From a virus, in IMG/VR virus record IMGVR_UViG_3300045988_025132, positions 1 to 36,089 of that record: DNA of 36,089 bases; one strand, given 5' to 3'. Below the pieces are notes generated by a model. The model saw only the letters and a program-made list of their open reading frames with translations. It searched no databases and was not told the DNA's origin. This document shows, one piece after another, positions 5,496 to 23,159 of this stretch. The position numbers and the translations under genes are program-made. The stretch's first letter is position 1, and every line of letters starts with the position of its first letter.

Positions 5496-6683
5496 TTAAT
5501 ACTCCTCTAATAGCCCACTTTCTGGGTTTTTTAGCCATGCTAAAACTGCCTCTTGGCTCATATGTTCGACTTTCCATGTTGGATTGTTTGTGATTGCATA
5601 GTCTTCAAATGCGTACATGGCATCGTAAAAAGCATCGATAAGAGCATCCACAACGTCAATCTTGTAAGTGGATTTCATTTTGTCTACTTGGATACCGATG
5701 TTGTCCTCTTTAATAACTGCATTTATCAAGGCTTTACGCATAATCTCATCATCCAAGCGAGTGATGTTGCCTTCGATAAATAGCGTTTGAAGGAATTTTG
5801 TAGGGTCTTTTAGCTCGCTTGTACGTTGTCTTATTGGCATCAGTGGGAAACTTGTATTAGATTCAAGACTTTTTATTATTTTATCAATCATCATAGCGTC
5901 ATAGCCGAAGAAAACGACATCAAGCGCGTTGTCTTCAACATAATCAATAAACCAGCGATACACTTCCTCTGGGTTTATAAGCCCTTGTGGGTGGCTTGTT
6001 ATAGTACAGTAGCCCTTGGCTTCCAAGTCTCGATAGTTAACACCGTCTTGTTCCATCTTTGCTTCTAACGAGCCCGCTTGTTGCCATGGGATAAAACTGT
6101 GCTGTTCGATATGCCATTTTTGACTTCCATCTTCACCAACGTATGGATAGACGAAGCCAATGGCTGTATTATCGCTGAACATTGATGCATCCAATCCTAC
6201 ATAAACTCGCTTACCACGTATGTCAAACTCAGGAATAACTGCATTTTCGATATCTTTCAAATCAAGAAAGCTGTTACTGTCAGCAAGTAGCCAGCAGTTC
6301 ATGTTTTTAACTTGGAAGTCTGCGAGGTTACCACTTAGCAGGTCGCTATCTCGCTTGTCCATTAACCCTTTCATAAGGTTCTCACGTTCGCTCTCCAAGT
6401 CTAGCAGTGGATTGCTCTTTGCCCATGTTTCTGGTTGGAAGACCTCGTCTAAGTTATCTTGCGACCAAACTAAGCAAAGATACGTATCGGCGTCACGATT
6501 ATCGTCATCTTCCATGGCTTGCTGCAAAATCTTTTGGTCTTCCCTGAAAGGAACTGATGGGTTTGGGTAGGCAGTGGAGATTTGAATGAATTGCCTATTG
6601 GGCACCTTTACTTGCCCAGAAACAATCTTAGAAACCGCATCTCTTGTTTCAATTTCTCCAATTTCATCAAAAATAGCCGTTGT
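5496..6683 (-). CDS. terL: Terminase large subunit, C-terminal fragment (Walker B plus nuclease domain)
   Basis: The frame is open from 6683 (TTAIFDEIGEIETRDAVSKIVSGQVKVPNRQF...), but the first usable start is GTG at 6605, downstream of the Walker B-like AIFDE. See the terL finding. Confidence 0.75.
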   Translation of the reverse strand, partial: TTAIFDEIGEIETRDAVSKIVSGQVKVPNRQFIQISTAYPNPSVPFREDQKILQQAMEDDDNRDADTYLCLVWSQDNLDEVFQPETWAKSNPLLDLESERENLMKGLMDKRDSDLLSGNLADFQVKNMNCWLLADSNSFLDLKDIENAVIPEFDIRGKRVYVGLDASMFSDNTAIGFVYPYVGEDGSQKWHIEQHSFIPWQQAGSLEAKMEQDGVNYRDLEAKGYCTITSHPQGLINPEEVYRWFIDYVEDNALDVVFFGYDAMMIDKIIKSLESNTSFPLMPIRQRTSELKDPTKFLQTLFIEGNITRLDDEIMRKALINAVIKEDNIGIQVDKMKSTYKIDVVDALIDAFYDAMYAFEDYAITNNPTWKVEHMSQEAVLAWLKNPESGLLEEY

Positions 6684-6687
6684 TCAT

Positions 6688-7377
6688 TCAAGTAAAATGA
6701 AAACTATCATATTGCCCACTCTCAGCAGATATAGCTCTCAAAACGTTGTTGTTTGCTTTCATAATAACTTGGTCACTATGCAAGCCCAATTCAGTTTCAT
6801 TTGCCAAACTCTTGAAAGGTTCGTTTTGGATTATTTGCTTCATCATTGATTTGATGTAACCAAGCAACTTGTTTGTTTGTTTGAAGTTGATTGATGTAAC
6901 CAAATAGTCCTGATTGGAAAGTCCGAGGCTTTCAATAAAATACGAATACGCCGTAAGAATAGCCATCAAGTATGTCTTACCTTGACCTCGACCGACTGAA
7001 ACAATCGCACGGCTGAAACGTTTACCACCGTTTGCATTTCTCCATCCGAAAAGCATACATAAGATGAACTTTTGCCATGCCATCAGCTTTGTTGGCTCAC
7101 CAGTGTCTACGTTTGGACAAATTCTAGCGAAGCGCAGTAGCTTAGCTGCTTCGTCCGTGTCATAAGAATACGGAAAGTCGTCGTTACCTTGTCTTTGTAG
7201 GTCTCGCAAGTGGCGGAAACAAGCCAGTTTAATCATATAGCCAGTTGTGATTCGCCCTTCCAAAGCATCAAAACAATATTTTGTTCCATCGTCTTGATAT
7301 TTTTTTGCAATATCGGTGAAATCAAATTCTTTATACGCCGAATCTATATCATGAGTTTTTGTTAGATTTGTTTTCAT
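6688..7377 (-). CDS. terL: Terminase large subunit, N-terminal fragment (Walker A ATPase part), ends at a premature TGA
   Basis: 229 aa with Walker A VGRGQGKTY. It ends ...SGQYDSFHFT-TGA immediately before the expected Walker B. RBS AAGGGGGTGA precedes the ATG. Confidence 0.8.
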   Translation of the reverse strand: MKTNLTKTHDIDSAYKEFDFTDIAKKYQDDGTKYCFDALEGRITTGYMIKLACFRHLRDLQRQGNDDFPYSYDTDEAAKLLRFARICPNVDTGEPTKLMAWQKFILCMLFGWRNANGGKRFSRAIVSVGRGQGKTYLMAILTAYSYFIESLGLSNQDYLVTSINFKQTNKLLGYIKSMMKQIIQNEPFKSLANETELGLHSDQVIMKANNNVLRAISAESGQYDSFHFT

Positions 7378-18775: not shown

Positions 18776-19468
18776 CTATTCATTGTCTATTACACGTTTC
18801 ATTTTACCGCCCAAGAAAGATTCTTTGGCAAGGGTAGTACCGTCTGGTGATTTTACGTAAAGTCTAGGCCCGTATGCTTCATTATAATTGTTTTCTGGTT
18901 TTGCGTTCCATTCTTGGAAATAATTTTCTTTAGCAGAAAGAAGTGTATCTGCTAATTGTTGAATTTGTGGATTCGGTAAGTATTTGTAATTTTGTGGGAC
19001 AACCACATCTATTAAAACTGAACTGTTTGGCATGACAGCAAACGAATCTGTGATACCACTTTGCTTTAAAACATCGTTGATTTTAGTGTTTAATTCAGAG
19101 GCGAATGCTGTATTTGCGGCGTCGTCATAAGTTTTTGAAGTTGAACTTGTTTCTGTGCTAGAAACCGTTTTTGAAGATGAACTTGCTTCTTTCTTACTGC
19201 TAGAAGAAGTCTTAGCGTTTTTCTTTTTTGATGAAGAGGTAGCTGAAGTTTTTTTAGAAGTTTGTTCAGTTTTAGCAGTTTCTACAGACGATTCAGATTT
19301 ATCTGTAGGTGAAATCAAAGCACCTATGAAAAACATAATCATGGCAAGAAGTCCACCGATAAGCGATTTTTTGCGTAGATCTTTATTTTTTTTGATAACC
19401 GACCACAGTAAAGCACCAATATAAACAATAAAACCTAAAAATCCTACTAAGGATAGTAATAACCACAT
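18776..19468 (-). CDS. Membrane protein with two N-terminal TM helices, a Ser/Thr/Lys-rich linker and a C-terminal domain of about 115 aa
   Basis: 230-aa ORF with RBS GGGAGGAG. TM segments are LLLSLVGFLGFIVYIGALLWSVI and LIGGLLAMIMFFIGALI. The low-complexity stretch is TSKKTSATSSSKKKNAKTSSSSKKEASSSSKTVSSTETSSTSK. Confidence 0.7.
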   Translation of the reverse strand: MWLLLSLVGFLGFIVYIGALLWSVIKKNKDLRKKSLIGGLLAMIMFFIGALISPTDKSESSVETAKTEQTSKKTSATSSSKKKNAKTSSSSKKEASSSSKTVSSTETSSTSKTYDDAANTAFASELNTKINDVLKQSGITDSFAVMPNSSVLIDVVVPQNYKYLPNPQIQQLADTLLSAKENYFQEWNAKPENNYNEAYGPRLYVKSPDGTTLAKESFLGGKMKRVIDNE

Positions 19469-19652
19469 TTTTTGTTCTCCTCCCAGCTTTTAACGTGATT
19501 CAGTTTTGCACGTAGTTTTAAATAACGTTTTGCTGAATTTTCCTAAATTCATCTTGTATCATCGCTTCGCCCCAAGTCGTGGAAATATCATAACCTTGAG
19601 CAAAGAGTAGTCAAAATCATTTGTTGCTATTTCGTTCATCTTGTTCCTTTCT

Positions 19653-19673
19653 AACTTGAATTTAATTCAAGTT
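19653..19673. promoter_or_regulatory. 21-bp palindrome AACTTGAAT-TTA-ATTCAAGTT just downstream of the cro-like gene
   Basis: Perfect 9-bp arms are visible in the sequence. No U-tract follows on either strand, so it is more likely a protein-binding site or RNA hairpin than a terminator. Confidence 0.35.
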
Positions 19674-19679
19674 TTAAAA

Positions 19680-19883
19680 TCAAAATCCATACAAATCAGA
19701 CGATTTAAGGTTGTATTTTTTACAAATGGTTACCATGTTTTTAGGAGAAATAGAAAGCACATTCTTCTCCCATGCACTCACCGTTTGAGGTGTAGTACCA
19801 ACGCTTTTAGCAAACTCCTCTTGTGTCAAATTGTGACGTGCTCGGAGTTCTTTGATTGTAATCTTTGGAACTACTTCTGTCAT
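19680..19883 (-). CDS. Cro-like XRE-family HTH transcriptional regulator
   Basis: 67 aa with HTH LTQEEFAKSVGTTPQTVSAWEKN and RBS GAGGAGG. It is the first gene after a consensus promoter. Confidence 0.85.
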   Translation of the reverse strand: MTEVVPKITIKELRARHNLTQEEFAKSVGTTPQTVSAWEKNVLSISPKNMVTICKKYNLKSSDLYGF

Positions 19884-19916
19884 TTTGTTCCTCCTCTCTA
19901 ACTAACTTACATACAT

Positions 19917-19945
19917 ATTATAACTTAAATAAAATTCGATGTCAA
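19917..19945 (-). promoter_or_regulatory. Consensus sigma-70 early promoter (TTGACA-17 nt-TATAAT)
   Basis: Minus strand reads TTGACATCGAATTTTATTTAAGTTATAAT, about 30 nt upstream of the cro-like ATG. Confidence 0.8.
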
Positions 19946-20016
19946 CAGTTTTCTTGGTTTTTTTCAAAGTTTTATTGATTTTTTTATAAATTTACTTGAA
20001 AATTAGTAAAGTCTAC

Positions 20017-20036
20017 TATATATATATATATATATA
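20017..20036. repeat. (TA)10 dinucleotide microsatellite
   Basis: A direct read shows 20 nt of alternating TA between the accessory-operon terminator and the early promoter. Confidence 0.95.
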
Positions 20037-20060
20037 AAAAAGAGAGCGGTAACTCTCTTT
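20033..20060 (-). terminator. Rho-independent terminator ending the accessory (acr) operon
   Basis: Minus strand reads AAAGAGAG-TTACCG-CTCTCTTT followed by TTTTATATA. Confidence 0.6.
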
Positions 20061-20089
20061 CTAATCAATATCTCGTGGTTTGCGATGTT

Positions 20090-20176
20090 TTATATGCCAA
20101 TCTCGCTCTCTAAATAATCAGCAGGTATAGCCTCGTTCTTCAAGACCATGTTTACTCTTGTCGTATTGATTTTCAT
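20090..20176 (-). CDS. Possible 28-aa micro-ORF at the end of the accessory operon
   Basis: My translation: MKINTTRVNMVLKNEAIPADYLESEIGI. It is preceded by a third copy of the AAGATAAAGAGAGGGG leader/RBS. It is too short for any independent support. Confidence 0.3.
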   Translation of the reverse strand: MKINTTRVNMVLKNEAIPADYLESEIGI

Positions 20177-20209
20177 TTTTTTGTTCTCCCCCCTCTCTTT
20201 ATCTTATTT

Positions 20210-20527
20210 TTAAGGAACTAACTCGAGATCCATCATCTCGATAACTTCAGGCTCTTTTTCAGGGATATCCCTTGATTTACCAATACCAAGGTACTCCCTA
20301 TAACCATTCTTTGTCCAATGGCTACGTGGGGAAACTCTAGGGAGGTACCCTTTCACATGGTCATTTGACCAAGAGTTTTTAGGGTTTATAAGCCCCTTAA
20401 TGACTCCATCGGCCCATTCACTTGGGCTGATCATGTAGCCCTCATCGTTATAAAACGATTTACGATTAGCAGTTTTCTGCTGTTTTCGTGCAGCTCTATA
20501 AGTAGAGCTTATTTTGAAATTTTTCAT
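20210..20527 (-). CDS. Uncharacterised 105-aa protein in the anti-CRISPR locus (candidate anti-defence gene)
   Basis: The ORF has its own copy of the acr promoter/operator/leader cassette. The N-terminus is basic (RAARKQQKTANRK) and the C-terminus acidic (EKEPEVIEMMDLELVP). I recognise no family. Confidence 0.7.
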   Translation of the reverse strand: MKNFKISSTYRAARKQQKTANRKSFYNDEGYMISPSEWADGVIKGLINPKNSWSNDHVKGYLPRVSPRSHWTKNGYREYLGIGKSRDIPEKEPEVIEMMDLELVP

Positions 20528-20558
20528 TATTTATTCCCTCTCTTTATCTTATGTGTAT

Positions 20559-20587
20559 AGTATATATCATATATGATAGTTTGTCAA
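20559..20587 (-). promoter_or_regulatory. Promoter P2 (TTGACA-17 nt-TATACT) with a 14-bp palindrome TATCATATATGATA in the spacer
   Basis: Minus strand reads TTGACAAACTATCATATATGATATATACT. The palindrome is at 20565-20578 and abuts the -10. Confidence 0.7.
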
Positions 20588-20615
20588 CACTTTTGATTAA
20601 AAAATATATGTTTTT

Positions 20616-21167
20616 TTATCGGATATTCTCCAAGTTTTTTTCAATCCATTCTAGTCTATTTTGACGACCAGACGGAATAGGTTCTTGACCTTTTGAATAG
20701 TCTTTAAACCTCATTTGGATCATGTAAGAACCACCACCCAGACGGCTAGATTCTAACGCAATTTCTAAATAAGCGTTAGCAATGTAACTACCGCTTGACG
20801 TGTACATTCTACCAGTTCCGCCTATGATGTCTTCGAGGCTAGTTTCAAGCCATTTCATAAGCTGTTGTTTTTTAAATTGATCGTAATAAGTATGGAACGC
20901 CATATTGAACTTAAGGGAATTATCCAAATAATATTCATCTTGAGCCTTACCAATCATAGCAAGCTCGAAATCGTCGAATAGGCAGGAAAGCATGGCATTA
21001 ACTCGTGCTGCTCCCATTTTTTCGATGGAAGTATCACCATTTTTGAATTTTTGCCAATTGGCATCTGTGAACTTGATGCCCGGCAATTTGTAGAAGTCGT
21101 TTTCAAACTTGAAATATCTCCCTACGTATTCCAAGATTAACTCTTTGATGTCTTTGTTGATTTCCAT
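20616..21167 (-). CDS. acrIIA6: AcrIIA6-like anti-CRISPR protein (St1Cas9 inhibitor family)
   Basis: 183 aa, the same length as AcrIIA6. Long stretches match my recollection of that protein (DIKELILEY..RYFKFENDFYKLPGIKFTDANWQKFKNG, KMGAARVNAML.CLFDDFELAMIGKAQ, RFKDYSKGQEPIPSGRQNRLEWIE.NLENIR). It sits between the lysin and the early genes, as in S. thermophilus virulent phages. Confidence 0.75.
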   Translation of the reverse strand: MEINKDIKELILEYVGRYFKFENDFYKLPGIKFTDANWQKFKNGDTSIEKMGAARVNAMLSCLFDDFELAMIGKAQDEYYLDNSLKFNMAFHTYYDQFKKQQLMKWLETSLEDIIGGTGRMYTSSGSYIANAYLEIALESSRLGGGSYMIQMRFKDYSKGQEPIPSGRQNRLEWIEKNLENIR

Positions 21168-21199
21168 TTTGTTTACCTCTCTCTTTATCTTATGTATAC

Positions 21200-21228
21200 A
21201 TTATATATCATATATGATAGTCTGTCAA
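21200..21228 (-). promoter_or_regulatory. Promoter P1 (TTGACA-17 nt-TATAAT) with the same 14-bp palindrome in the spacer
   Basis: Minus strand reads TTGACAGACTATCATATATGATATATAAT. The palindrome is at 21206-21219. Confidence 0.75.
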
Positions 21229-21260
21229 CTGTTTTTATAAAAAAATATATATTTTTTTGC

Positions 21261-21292
21261 AAAACAAAAACCCTGACTAATTCAAGTCAGGG
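21261..21292 (-). terminator. Rho-independent terminator (second of two after the lysin gene)
   Basis: Minus strand reads CCCTGACT-TGAATT-AGTCAGGG followed by TTTTTGTTTT. Confidence 0.75.
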
Positions 21293-21367
21293 CAAGAGAG
21301 AGTTTATCGAAGACTCAGCTTTTAACTGTATCCATTAATATAGTAGCATTTATATTAAAAAAAAGCA

Positions 21368-21398
21368 AACAAAAAAGCCCCAGCATAATGCTGAGGCT
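21368..21398 (-). terminator. Rho-independent terminator after the lysin gene
   Basis: Minus strand reads AGCCTCAGCA-TTA-TGCTGGGGCT followed by TTTTTTG. Confidence 0.75.
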
Positions 21399-21479
21399 TC
21401 GACCACTGCTGCCATGGTATCCCTATTGCAGTGTGAGGGGAGGTGATATACTCCTTTTTTATTTTATAGTTTGCGTGGT

Positions 21480-21729
21480 CTATTGGTAATAGTTTACCAA
21501 ATCATCTTTATTCCAACAAGAGAGCCAAACTGTCCCAAACTGACCAAACTCGAAACGTCGGTAGTAATAGCCACCATAATAGCCACCTTGACCAGTGTCT
21601 GTAATGTTGTTTTCATCACCGGCAAAACTAAAGTACATTCCAGACTTAAAATCTTGGTCTGAACCGTCTGGCAAGTCGTTGCCGTCCTTATCTACCCAGT
21701 TAACCATTGAAACTGGGACACCATTTTCT
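21480..21729 (-). CDS. lys: Lysin exon 2 (C-terminal cell-wall-binding part)
   Basis: The frame is open from 21728 (ENGVPVSMVNWVDKDGNDL...). Joined to exon 1 it gives 846 nt, or 281 aa. Confidence 0.8.
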
Positions 21730-21988
21730 CATTACTACCCACTATTCCTAGTGGGATTAGACTATATCTTACTTTAGATATTTTCTGTCTTTCTAAAGTC
21801 TAAGCACTTCCACTCGCGTACAAATAGTGAGTGTACTCCTCAAAAGGATAGTCGTTACACCTTTCTGATACTATTATACCAGACTTGGCACGGTATTGCC
21901 CGTTCTGGGTGTCCACCGTTAGCCATGCTTTTGCATGACACCGCTTTGTTTGCGTTCACTTAGTTTATACTGAGCCGAAAATTAGTTA
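21730..21988 (-). mobile_element. Group I self-splicing intron (259 nt, no internal ORF) interrupting the lysin gene
   Basis: P1: the exon end ACUGGGU (21995-21989) pairs with intron GCUCAGU (21975-21969), with the conserved terminal U.G pair. P10: intron AUUUUC pairs with exon-2 GAAAAU. The intron ends in G (21730). Splicing restores the reading frame. Multiple internal helices are visible (GGUGUC/GACACC, CAUGC/GCAUG, CCCACUA/UAGUGGG). Confidence 0.8.
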
Positions 21989-22584
21989 ACCCAGTCGAAC
22001 CCAATTGGACATAAATAATCACATTTAATCTGATAAATACCATTAACATATTTGACTTCGTTGGCTTCATAATATGCTTTCTCTTGCGGTTCTACTGATG
22101 TATTGGCTTGATTGTTAGTCTGTGGTGTAGTGTCAGAATAACGCCAAACCTCGATATATGAAGGGTGGTTCGCTGCGTAGTAGTCGTTCCAAGGGTAAGT
22201 ATTGATAGCTTGCCCAGGTGCCCCTTGAGTTGAATAATCGCAACTAATAAAGTATGTAGCATCCATCATGACACCAACGTGCCCTCCAGCTCCGCCAGAT
22301 GTGGACATATCAGCACCCCATGACATCAAAACGATATCTCCTGTCAAGGCGTCCCAATCTTGATTAATACTTACTCGATAGAATCCATTTTTGGCAAGTT
22401 GTTGACCTAGTGTAACAGTAGATGGTAGACCTTGAATACCGATACCAGCTTCTTTTAAGGCTTGTGATATGGAACCAGAACAGTCAGCAGTACCGTCTGC
22501 TCCGTTGCGTGACCCATACATTGAATAGGTCAATTTACCTCTATGGTTAACAAACCAATTTACAGTAGATTGTTGTACACTCAT
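21989..22584 (-). CDS. lys: Lysin exon 1 (Pal-like Amidase_5 catalytic domain)
   Basis: Motifs YSMYGSRNGADGTADCSGS and GGHVGVMMDATYFISCDY resemble those of the pneumococcal phage Dp-1 Pal amidase family. The unspliced ORF stops 7 nt into the intron (21982). Confidence 0.85.
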
Positions 22585-22585
22585 G

Positions 22586-22828
22586 CTATTTTCCTTTCTT
22601 GTCGTCTTGAGGTTGAGTATATCTCAATGCTCGCTCACTATCAGCAATTCCTTTAGTTGTTGGGTCGGTAACGATTCCGAGGATAACCAAAATTGCAACG
22701 AAAGTATTGACAGCGTCTTGGATATTGTGTGGAATTTCAAGCCCGAATTGCTGCAACATAAGGAATACTGCTGAGATAAGAGCTACTAATGTAGCTTTAT
22801 TTTTTAGTCGTAGTTTAAAATTAATCAT
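22586..22828 (-). CDS. Holin, phi LC3 family
   Basis: 80 aa with an N-terminus (MINFKLRLKNKATLVALISAVF) and two TM segments typical of this holin family. It lies directly upstream of the lysin. Confidence 0.8.
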   Translation of the reverse strand: MINFKLRLKNKATLVALISAVFLMLQQFGLEIPHNIQDAVNTFVAILVILGIVTDPTTKGIADSERALRYTQPQDDKKGK

Positions 22829-22835
22829 TTTATTA

Positions 22836-23159
22836 TTATCCTCTCAAGTTTCTATCTACTATTTTTTTAACTTCTTCAATATTTCCTTTTAGCTCTCCAA
22901 TGTTTTCATTGAGATGATCCATTCTTTGGACAAGAGCTAGAATTATTTTTTGGTCTTCTTGATGTTTGTCAAGACGATCATTATGGTTTTTAATAATTTT
23001 CTCGATTTCATGGTCGACGACCTCTAGTTTAGTGATTCTGTGCTCTAATTTGGAGGCGCGTGATTGACTAGAAAAATAGAAACTCGCGCTTGAAATGGAA
23101 ATTGGAAGAATGACAGTTATAAGCCAGTTCATCAAATCTGGCTCGGTTTGATTTACCAC
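22836..23159 (-). CDS. Membrane protein with one TM helix and a coiled coil (possible second holin or lysis regulator)
   Basis: 107 aa with a GTG start after AAAGGAGG. The TM segment is WLITVILPISISSASFYF. Confidence 0.5.
   Translation of the reverse strand: MVNQTEPDLMNWLITVILPISISSASFYFSSQSRASKLEHRITKLEVVDHEIEKIIKNHNDRLDKHQEDQKIILALVQRMDHLNENIGELKGNIEEVKKIVDRNLRG

What the first reader, a model, noticed from the sequence alone, without database searches (positions are those of the whole stretch)
20090..20615. Uncharacterised 105-aa gene with its own cloned acr promoter, next to an AcrIIA6-like gene: candidate new anti-CRISPR or anti-defence protein
The 105-aa ORF (20210-20527) sits directly downstream of the AcrIIA6-like gene, in the slot between the lysin and the early genes. 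It is driven by a near-copy of the AcrIIA6 promoter/operator/leader and shares that gene's terminator (20033-20060). I cannot match it to any family. Its N-terminus is strongly basic and its tail acidic (EVIEMMDLELVP), a composition seen in several nucleic-acid- or Cas-binding inhibitors. A 28-aa micro-ORF follows behind a third copy of the leader/RBS. By guilt by association, this is the best candidate in the window for an undescribed function.
Basis: inference. Interest (0 to 1): 0.78.

Follow-up and report, generated by a model that had tools for sequence, protein, structure and literature searches.

The report
Known anti-CRISPR AcrIIIA2, rediscovered

Summary
These are the 105-aa ORF (20210-20527), an 80-nt, 89%-identical copy of the acrIIA6 promoter/leader in front of it, a third copy of the leader, a 28-aa ORF, and a hairpin plus U-run at about 20033-20062.

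The ORF is not uncharacterised. It is 100% identical over 105 residues to the AcrIIIA2 chain of PDB 9NO4 and 9NQ7, titled "Cryo-EM structure of Csm/AcrIIIA2/enolase" complexes and released 2025-11-12. [quoted passage not shown] The same paper describes its internal sigma-A promoter.

The upstream 183-aa gene is AcrIIA6 (PDB 6EYY, E 5e-105).

The 28-aa micro-ORF is not a gene of its own. It is the 5' stub of a 140-aa gene that is intact in phage CHPC663 and 59% identical to the Aca12 reference (the acr regulator, also described as part of AcrIIA36).

So the locus is acrIIA6, acrIIIA2 and a truncated aca12, all known parts. The guilt-by-association inference was right in kind. The claim of novelty is not.

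The parts
21270..21400 (-). Two strong intrinsic-terminator hairpins downstream of the lysin gene. They insulate the acr region from late transcription.
   Evidence: The terminator scan found 21400-21374 (12 pairs) and 21293-21270 (9 pairs). They fold at -18.5 and -15.5 kcal/mol, z about -5.
21179..21258 (-). acrIIA6 promoter and leader. It contains an A/T-rich upstream stretch, the -35 TTGACA (21228-21223), a 17-nt spacer holding the palindrome TATCATATATGATA (21206-21219), the -10 TATAAT (21205-21200), and the leader ATAAGATAAAGAGAG with the RBS.
20616..21167 (-). acrIIA6 (183 aa), the St1Cas9 inhibitor family.
   Evidence: Full-length match to PDB 6EYY/6EYX 'AcrIIa6', E 5e-105. Also PHROG 4964.
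20538..20617 (-). Internal acrIIIA2 promoter and leader, an 89%-identical copy of the acrIIA6 promoter. It has the -35 TTGACA (20587-20582), the palindrome TATCATATATGATA (20565-20578), the -10 TATACT (20564-20559), and the same leader and RBS.
   Evidence: It is present upstream of acrIIIA2 in all 9 other loci examined. It is described as internal promoter 'd' in PMC13575424.
20210..20527 (-). acrIIIA2 (105 aa), a type III-A anti-CRISPR.
   Evidence: 105 of 105 residues identical to PDB 9NO4 chain R, and 104 of 104 aligned residues to 9NQ7 chain T. Foldseek gives the entry titles as 'Cryo-EM structure of Csm/AcrIIIA2/enolase 3:2 / 4:3 complex'. Also PHROG 25846.
20191..20212 (-). Third copy of the leader and RBS. 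This is the native leader of the aca12-family gene, and it overlaps the acrIIIA2 stop codon.
   Evidence: The same leader precedes the intact 140-aa gene in CHPC663.
20090..20176 (-). 28-aa ORF that is the 5' stub of an aca12-family (AcrIIA36/Aca12) gene. It is cut after codon 27, inside the helix-turn-helix, so it is a pseudogene remnant.
   Evidence: Its first 27 codons are identical to CHPC663_0029 (140 aa). Homology breaks after GAGATTGGCAT. The intact protein is 59% identical to the Aca12 reference WP_231458942.1. A profile of the family hits the AcrIIA15 HTH (E 3e-5) and Aca11 (E 0.008).
20033..20062 (-). Weak hairpin plus U-run, the probable shared terminator for both acr transcripts. 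A length-variable (AT)n run follows it.
   Evidence: It folds at -12.7 kcal/mol, z -4.7. The consensus scan did not call it. It is degraded in SWK1. The (AT)n length differs between window, SW3 and SWK1.
19680..19945 (-). The cro-like early gene (67 aa, HTH_3) with its own perfect sigma-A promoter (19945-19917). It lacks the palindrome and marks the downstream boundary of the variable (acr) region.

Best explanation
The window is a Streptococcus thermophilus cos-type phage (Moineauvirus) read in reverse. Its "variable region" between lysin and cro holds acrIIA6, acrIIIA2 and a truncated aca12.

The 105-aa ORF is AcrIIIA2. It is transcribed immediately after infection from two near-identical host-type sigma-A promoters: its own, and read-through from the acrIIA6 promoter.

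[quoted passage not shown] That complex binds the Csm (type III-A) crRNA effector and prevents it from recognising target RNA, which abolishes type III-A immunity.

What is shown here:
- identity to AcrIIIA2;
- the gene order;
- the duplicated promoter and leader;
- conservation of the family.

What is taken from PDB entry titles and a citing paper: the enolase/Csm mechanism.

What is inferred:
- co-termination of both transcripts at the weak hairpin;
- that the spacer palindrome is an Aca12-type operator left without its cis-encoded repressor.
For: - **Identity.** The ORF is 100% identical to AcrIIIA2 chains of 9NO4 and 9NQ7 (E 2.8e-70). Foldseek returns the entry titles 'Cryo-EM structure of Csm/AcrIIIA2/enolase 3:2 / 4:3 complex', released 2025-11-12.
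- **Distribution in phages.** Twenty S. thermophilus phage records carry a copy that is at least 99% identical.
- **Context.** In all 10 loci compared it is the last intact gene before the cro promoter and has the internal promoter. In 8 of those 10, acrIIA6 lies in the same region.
- **Family.** It is small and confined to Streptococcus: 57 clusters at 90% identity and 21 representatives among 1.84 billion proteins. Conserved motifs are SSTYRAARKQQ.T, WSN..VKG, PRSH.TK.G and an acidic tail.
- **Distant homologues.** They lie in mobile elements, next to an SSB/PDDEXK/ERF module or next to a primase.
- **Structure prediction.** The AF2 model is confident only for residues 1-60 and below pLDDT 50 from residue 65 on. 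That fits a protein that folds on its partners.
Against: - The primary papers (Nat Microbiol 2025;10:3162 and CRISPR J 2025;8:333) are not held, so the mechanism rests on PDB entry titles and one citing paper.
- Nothing in the window shows that this phage's host has a type III-A system.
- Expression, enolase binding and inhibition were not and cannot be tested here.
- The -10 of the internal promoter is TATACT, one mismatch from consensus.
- The shared terminator is weak and is not conserved in SWK1.
Confidence: 0.95

Rival explanations
1. The ORF is a still-undescribed anti-defence or anti-CRISPR protein.
For: Pfam and NCBIfam give no hit and its PHROG 25846 is 'unknown function'. All 20 GenBank phage records annotate it as 'hypothetical protein'.
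Against: It is 100% identical to a named, structurally solved protein, AcrIIIA2, and its function is summarised in PMC13575424. The family libraries simply predate the discovery.
Confidence: 0.02
2. The protein's main role is to take over host metabolism through enolase (glycolysis or RNA turnover), and CRISPR inhibition is secondary. Alternatively, it has a second defence target besides Csm.
For: The partner is a housekeeping enzyme (PDB titles). Homologues occur in S. salivarius elements beside an SSB/PDDEXK/ERF module, and the CRISPR content of those hosts is unknown.
Against: The solved complexes contain Csm together with enolase, and the citing paper attributes loss of type III-A immunity to it. 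In phages the gene sits only in acr loci.
Confidence: 0.05
3. The 28-aa micro-ORF is a translated, functional micropeptide in its own right.
For: It keeps a strong RBS and ATG. It is 100% conserved at protein level in every phage record where the 28-codon stub was found.
Against: - Its 27 N-terminal codons are those of a 140-aa Aca12-family gene, and homology ends abruptly at a deletion junction.
- The cut falls inside the HTH.
- The conservation reflects one recent shared deletion within a stretch that is 96-100% identical in those phages, so it is not evidence of selection.
Confidence: 0.05

Closest known systems
AcrIIIA2 (S. thermophilus phage; PDB 9NO4, 9NQ7; Johnson et al., Nat Microbiol 2025)
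   Same: The sequence is identical: 105 of 105 residues against 9NO4 chain R. The genomic slot (variable region between lysin and cro) and the internal sigma-A promoter also match.
   Different: Nothing detectable. The window phage itself is not in the phage collection. The closest records are about 91-95% identical overall. The acr locus matches SW3 best, with 100% identity over 20020-20215.
AcrIIA6 (PDB 6EYY), the neighbouring gene
   Same: It shares the early promoter, palindrome and leader with acrIIIA2, and sits in the same operon-like unit.
   Different: It is an unrelated protein that inhibits St1Cas9 (type II-A), not Csm. It has no sequence similarity to the 105-aa ORF.
Aca12 / AcrIIA36 (140-aa HTH protein of Streptococcaceae phages)
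   Same: The micro-ORF's 27 codons and its RBS are those of a 140-aa gene (CHPC663_0029) that is 59% identical to the Aca12 reference. Aca12 binds an inverted repeat in acr promoters (PMC13551039). A 14-bp palindrome sits in both promoters here.
   Different: In the window the gene is truncated after codon 27, so no regulator is encoded. The published Aca12 motif sequence could not be read, so identity of the operator is not shown.
Other type III anti-CRISPRs: AcrIIIA1 (protein-RNA complex, PMC11662646), AcrIII-1 (viral ring nuclease, bioRxiv 10.1101/778746), AcrIIIB2 (PMC10681719)
   Same: All are phage or virus proteins that disable type III CRISPR immunity (abstracts).
   Different: There is no sequence or fold similarity: Foldseek against PDB found only 9NO4 and 9NQ7 at E below 1. 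Unlike ring nucleases, which degrade cOA, AcrIIIA2 is reported to use a host enzyme as co-factor and to block target recognition.

Membership tests
AcrIIIA2 | Sequence matches the experimentally characterised AcrIIIA2 protein. | tested here: met
   phmmer against PDB gives 9no4_R E 2.8e-70 with 105 of 105 residues identical, and 9nq7_T with 104 of 104 aligned residues identical.
AcrIIIA2 | [quoted passage not shown] | tested here: met
   Gene order. Promoter TTGACA-17-TATACT at 20587-20559. The same holds in 9 other loci. Description in PMC13575424.
AcrIIIA2 | Binds host enolase and the Csm effector complex. | not testable with these tools
   This rests only on the PDB entry titles 'Csm/AcrIIIA2/enolase' and PMC13575424.
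AcrIIIA2 | Abolishes type III-A interference in vivo. | not testable with these tools
   Reported in the literature. It needs phage or plasmid challenge assays.
AcrIIA6 (neighbouring gene) | Full-length similarity to the solved AcrIIA6. | tested here: met
   6eyy_A, residues 1-183 against 1-183, E 5.3e-105.
Aca12 (micro-ORF) | Homology to the Aca12 reference protein. | tested here: met
   The stub is identical to codons 1-27 of CHPC663_0029. That protein is 59% identical to WP_231458942.1 over 131 aa, E 2e-56 (sequence from the PMC9765179 supplement).
Aca12 (micro-ORF) | Intact HTH DNA-binding domain and full length of about 140 aa. | tested here: not met
   The ORF stops after 28 codons. The HTH aligned to AcrIIA15 spans residues 12-57. 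The stub is therefore a remnant, not a functional member.
Aca12-regulated acr promoter | Inverted repeat bound by Aca12 overlapping the promoter. | tested here: inconclusive
   A perfect 14-bp palindrome lies between -35 and -10 in both acr promoters and not in the cro promoter.

The most novel reading that the evidence does not exclude
In this phage lineage the two acr promoters keep an Aca12-type operator (TATCATATATGATA) although the cis-encoded aca12 has been deleted to a 27-codon stub. Two consequences could follow.

- **Regulation.** acrIIA6 and acrIIIA2 would be expressed without autorepression. They could still be shut down in trans by Aca12 made from resident prophages such as 5093, 20617, TP-J34 or O1205, which carry the intact gene. 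That would act as a host-side "anti-anti-CRISPR" effect.
- **Cassette exchange.** The repeated 15-22-nt leader, together with the repeated promoter, would act as a recombination joint through which acr cassettes are gained and lost. Phage SWK6 has the same promoter fused through the leader directly to the aca12 stub, exactly lacking acrIIIA2.
Probability: 0.2. Interest if true: 0.45.

Novelty: already known. Interest (0 to 1): 0.12.

Why it matters
For discovery it matters little, because the gene, its structure in complex with Csm and enolase, its mechanism and even its internal promoter are already published.

It is useful as a positive control for the scan. A tool-free reader, using only position and a duplicated promoter, picked out a gene that was experimentally confirmed as a type III-A anti-CRISPR.

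The locus also gives a compact example of modular acr evolution:
- two acr genes behind cloned promoters;
- a decayed regulator gene;
- a sister phage (SWK6) that lacks exactly the acrIIIA2 cassette.

Tried and rejected
- **Family libraries.** Pfam and NCBIfam gave no hit for the 105-aa ORF, and PHROGs only gave an 'unknown function' family. These libraries predate the discovery, so this is not informative.
- **Rfam.** At gathering thresholds nothing was found in 19000-23000.
- **Collection scans.** The IMG/VR scan gave only 1 locus and the GTDB genome scan only 2. The context survey was therefore done on GenBank phage records instead.
- **Structure prediction.** The AF2 model was poor (pLDDT 65, C-terminal half below 50). 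Its superposition on 9NO4 is bad (TM 0.43, rmsd 15.6 Å), and the match is carried by sequence. No fold inference was drawn from it.
- **Primary papers.** The Nat Microbiol 2025 and CRISPR J 2025 papers could not be opened by PMC id, DOI or PubMed id, and no preprint was found.
- **Window identity.** I considered that the window was phage SWK1, which has the same length of 36089 bp. I rejected this because SWK1 has two extra ORFs between acrIIA6 and acrIIIA2 and only 97% identity downstream.
- **The 140-aa gene.** I first suspected a new AcrIIA15-like HTH fusion. It turned out to be the known Aca12 family.
- **Aca12 motif.** The published motif sequence could not be retrieved to compare with the palindrome.

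Full report
**1. Observation**

The region is coding on the minus strand. Reading 5' to 3' on that strand, the order is as follows.
- The lysin gene, split by a group I intron.
- Two strong terminators (21400-21374 and 21293-21270).
- A promoter, then a 183-aa ORF (20616-21167).
- An 88-nt spacer with a second promoter, then the 105-aa ORF (20210-20527).
- A third leader copy, then a 28-aa ORF (20090-20176).
- A hairpin with a U-run and an (AT)n run.
- The cro promoter and a 67-aa HTH_3 Cro-like gene (19680-19883), a 230-aa membrane protein, and an antirepressor.

The promoter duplication is real. The 80-nt stretches 20538-20617 and 21179-21258 are 89% identical. Both carry TTGACA, 17 nt, then TATAAT or TATACT (12 of 12 and 11 of 12 consensus positions). 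Both contain the perfect palindrome TATCATATATGATA in the spacer. It occurs only at these two sites in the window, where 0.26 are expected by chance.

The leader ATAAGATAAAGAGAG occurs exactly three times in the window, each just upstream of one of the three ORFs. The charge asymmetry of the protein is as stated: +8 in residues 1-25 and -5 in residues 86-105.

The hairpin folds at -12.7 kcal/mol (z = -4.7). However, its G+C core is short, the consensus scan did not call it, and it is mutated in phage SWK1. It is therefore a plausible but weak shared terminator.

**2. What the 105-aa ORF is**

A sequence search of the PDB gives a full-length, 105 of 105 identical match to chain R of 9NO4. Chain T of 9NQ7 matches at 104 of 104 aligned residues. 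The molecule name in both is 'AcrIIIA2'. Foldseek returns the entry titles 'Cryo-EM structure of Csm/AcrIIIA2/enolase 3:2 complex' and '4:3 complex', both released 2025-11-12. No other structure scores below E = 1.

A 2026 NAR paper (PMC13575424) cites Johnson, Goswami, Catchpole et al., Nat Microbiol 2025;10:3162. [quoted passage not shown] The same paper describes the internal variable-region promoter before AcrIIIA2 and its UP element.

The primary paper is not held. The mechanism is therefore taken from these secondary sources and was not tested here.

The neighbouring 183-aa gene is AcrIIA6, with a full-length match to 6EYY at E 5e-105.

**3. Family and context**

Twenty GenBank S. thermophilus phage records carry a copy at least 99% identical, all annotated 'hypothetical protein'. 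I compared 10 loci: the window, SWK1, SW3, CHPC663, CHPC1156, P7631, 94, CHPC1148, 9A and one IMG/VR contig.
- In all 10, acrIIIA2 is the last intact gene before the cro promoter.
- In all 10, it is preceded by the internal promoter.
- In 8 of the 10, acrIIA6 lies in the same region.
- In phages 94 and CHPC1148, an IbrA/IbrB-like pair precedes it instead.

More widely, the family is small and confined to Streptococcus. There are 57 clusters at 90% identity, with members 44-99% identical to the query. Only 21 representatives appear among 1.84 billion proteins.

Conserved blocks are SSTYRAARKQQ.T, S.(E/D)WA, WSN..VKG, PRSH.TK.G and an acidic/hydrophobic tail.

Distant homologues sit in mobile elements.
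- In S. salivarius-type contigs they lie directly upstream of an SSB / DUF3799-PDDEXK / ERF module, once as two tandem paralogues.
- In another element they lie near a primase.

AlphaFold2 with this alignment is confident only for residues 1-60 and below pLDDT 50 from residue 65 on. This is compatible with a protein that orders on binding partners.

**4. The micro-ORF**

The 28-aa ORF and its RBS are identical to the first 27 codons and the leader of a 140-aa gene. That gene is intact in CHPC663 (CHPC663_0029), phage 5093 and prophage 20617. In the window, and in every acrIIIA2-bearing locus aligned or searched except CHPC663, homology stops right after GAGATTGGCAT and unrelated sequence follows.

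The intact protein belongs to a family of about 700 Streptococcus (pro)phage proteins.
- Its profile hits the N-terminal HTH of AcrIIA15 (8JFR, E 3e-5) and Aca11 (9LX2, E 0.008).
- It is 59% identical (E 2e-56) to the Aca12 reference WP_231458942.1, whose sequence is given in the AcaFinder supplement.

PMC13551039 reports the following about Aca12.
- It is 140 aa long and exclusive to phages of Streptococcaceae.
- It binds an inverted repeat in the acr promoter in EMSA.

The micro-ORF is therefore a decayed aca12/acrIIA36 gene, cut inside its HTH. It is not a small gene of its own. Its perfect conservation reflects one shared recent deletion within a stretch that is 96-100% identical in those phages.

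**5. How the locus most likely works**

*Shown.* There are two strong host-type promoters with identical architecture, no terminator between the two acr genes, and a weak hairpin after the stub.

*From the literature.* These promoters fire early. AcrIIA6 blocks St1Cas9, and AcrIIIA2 with enolase blocks Csm target recognition.

*Inferred.*
- acrIIIA2 is transcribed both from its own promoter and by read-through from the acrIIA6 promoter.
- The palindrome between -35 and -10 is the Aca12-type operator. Its position matches that shown for Aca11 in PMC12282945. Variants in other phages keep the outer arms: TATCAT[A/C/G]TATGATA, TATCTTATATGATA and TATCATCCACGATA.
- Since aca12 is truncated here, the phage has no cis-encoded repressor.

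The published Aca12 motif could not be read, so the operator assignment is unproven.

**6. Cassette behaviour**

Phage SWK6 carries the same internal promoter joined, within the shared leader ATAAGATAAAGAGAG, directly to the aca12 stub. It lacks exactly the acrIIIA2 ORF plus one leader copy. In phages 94 and CHPC1148, the acrIIIA2 core promoter is fused to an upstream A/T-rich element nearly identical (39 of 40 nt) to that of the cro promoter. Both observations fit gain and loss of acr cassettes by recombination between the repeated promoter and leader sequences.

**7. Verdict**

The functional guess (anti-CRISPR, to be tested against type III-A) was correct, but the gene is already known, named and structurally solved. 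The micro-ORF claim is replaced by a truncated aca12.

Novelty is 'already known' and interest is low. The residual open points are modest variations on published themes: the operator and trans-repression by prophage Aca12, and leader-mediated cassette exchange.

The window itself is an S. thermophilus Moineauvirus that is not identical to any record in the phage collection. The best whole-genome matches are about 91-95% identical.

Noticed in passing
window 20090-20176 (-); L004:2541-2963: The 28-aa micro-ORF is the 5' stub of a 140-aa Aca12-family (AcrIIA36/Aca12) gene, with its first 27 codons and RBS unchanged. The gene is intact in phages CHPC663, 5093, 20617, TP-J34, O1205 and Sfi21. The deletion junction lies right after GAGATTGGCAT.
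   Followed up: yes
L018:2565-2717 (phage SWK6) versus window 20090-20617: SWK6 has the acrIIIA2-type promoter fused through the shared leader ATAAGATAAAGAGAG directly to the aca12 stub. It lacks exactly the acrIIIA2 ORF. This suggests that acrIIIA2 behaves as a cassette flanked by 15-22-nt leader repeats.
   Followed up: partly
window 20565-20578 and 21206-21219: A perfect 14-bp palindrome, TATCATATATGATA, sits between -35 and -10 of both acr promoters and is absent from the cro promoter. Variants in 12 phages mostly keep the outer arms. It is a candidate Aca12 operator, but the published motif could not be compared.
   Followed up: partly
window 21738-22007 (-): The lysin gene is split into ORFs 21982-22584 and 21480-21707 by a group I intron. 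The Rfam RF00028 match covers the full model at 40.4 bits, below the gathering score of 50, with E 5.9e-9. SW3 has an uninterrupted lysin, and CHPC663 has an endonuclease ORF at this position.
   Followed up: partly
L006:6001-6321 and 6334-6702 (S. salivarius CP015284.1); L011:4992-5312; L012:3152-3475: AcrIIIA2 homologues in S. salivarius-type elements lie immediately upstream of an SSB / DUF3799-PDDEXK / ERF module. In L006 there are two tandem paralogues representing the two tail subtypes (EMMDLELVF and FLDIEVVAED).
   Followed up: partly
L015:2501-2590 and L016:2501-2590 (phages 94, CHPC1148): Here the acrIIIA2 core promoter carries the variant palindrome TATCATCCACGATA. It is joined to an upstream A/T-rich stretch nearly identical (39 of 40 nt) to the UP element of the cro promoter, so the promoter is chimeric. 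An IbrA/IbrB-like (PAPS reductase / ParB) pair precedes acrIIIA2 instead of acrIIA6.
   Followed up: no
L019:2468-2686 (phage D4276, D4276_033); L021:2501-2695 (CHPC676): Stand-alone proteins of about 64-72 aa are homologous to the N-terminal HTH of the Aca12-family protein only (about 49-58% identity). They lie near the 3' end of the variable regions of D4276 and several CHPC phages. A 78-aa relative lies two genes upstream of the most distant AcrIIIA2 homologue (L007:4563-4799).
   Followed up: partly
L001:2322-2579 (phage SWK1): Between acrIIA6 and acrIIIA2, SWK1 carries an 85-aa ORF that matches only the C-terminal part of PHROG 7237. The 230-aa membrane protein of the window (18776-19468) belongs to the same PHROG family. 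This looks like another gene fragment in the variable region.
   Followed up: no
window about 20012-20038: An (AT)n microsatellite lies between the hairpin and the cro promoter UP element. Its length differs between the window, SW3 (longer) and SWK1 (almost absent).
   Followed up: no
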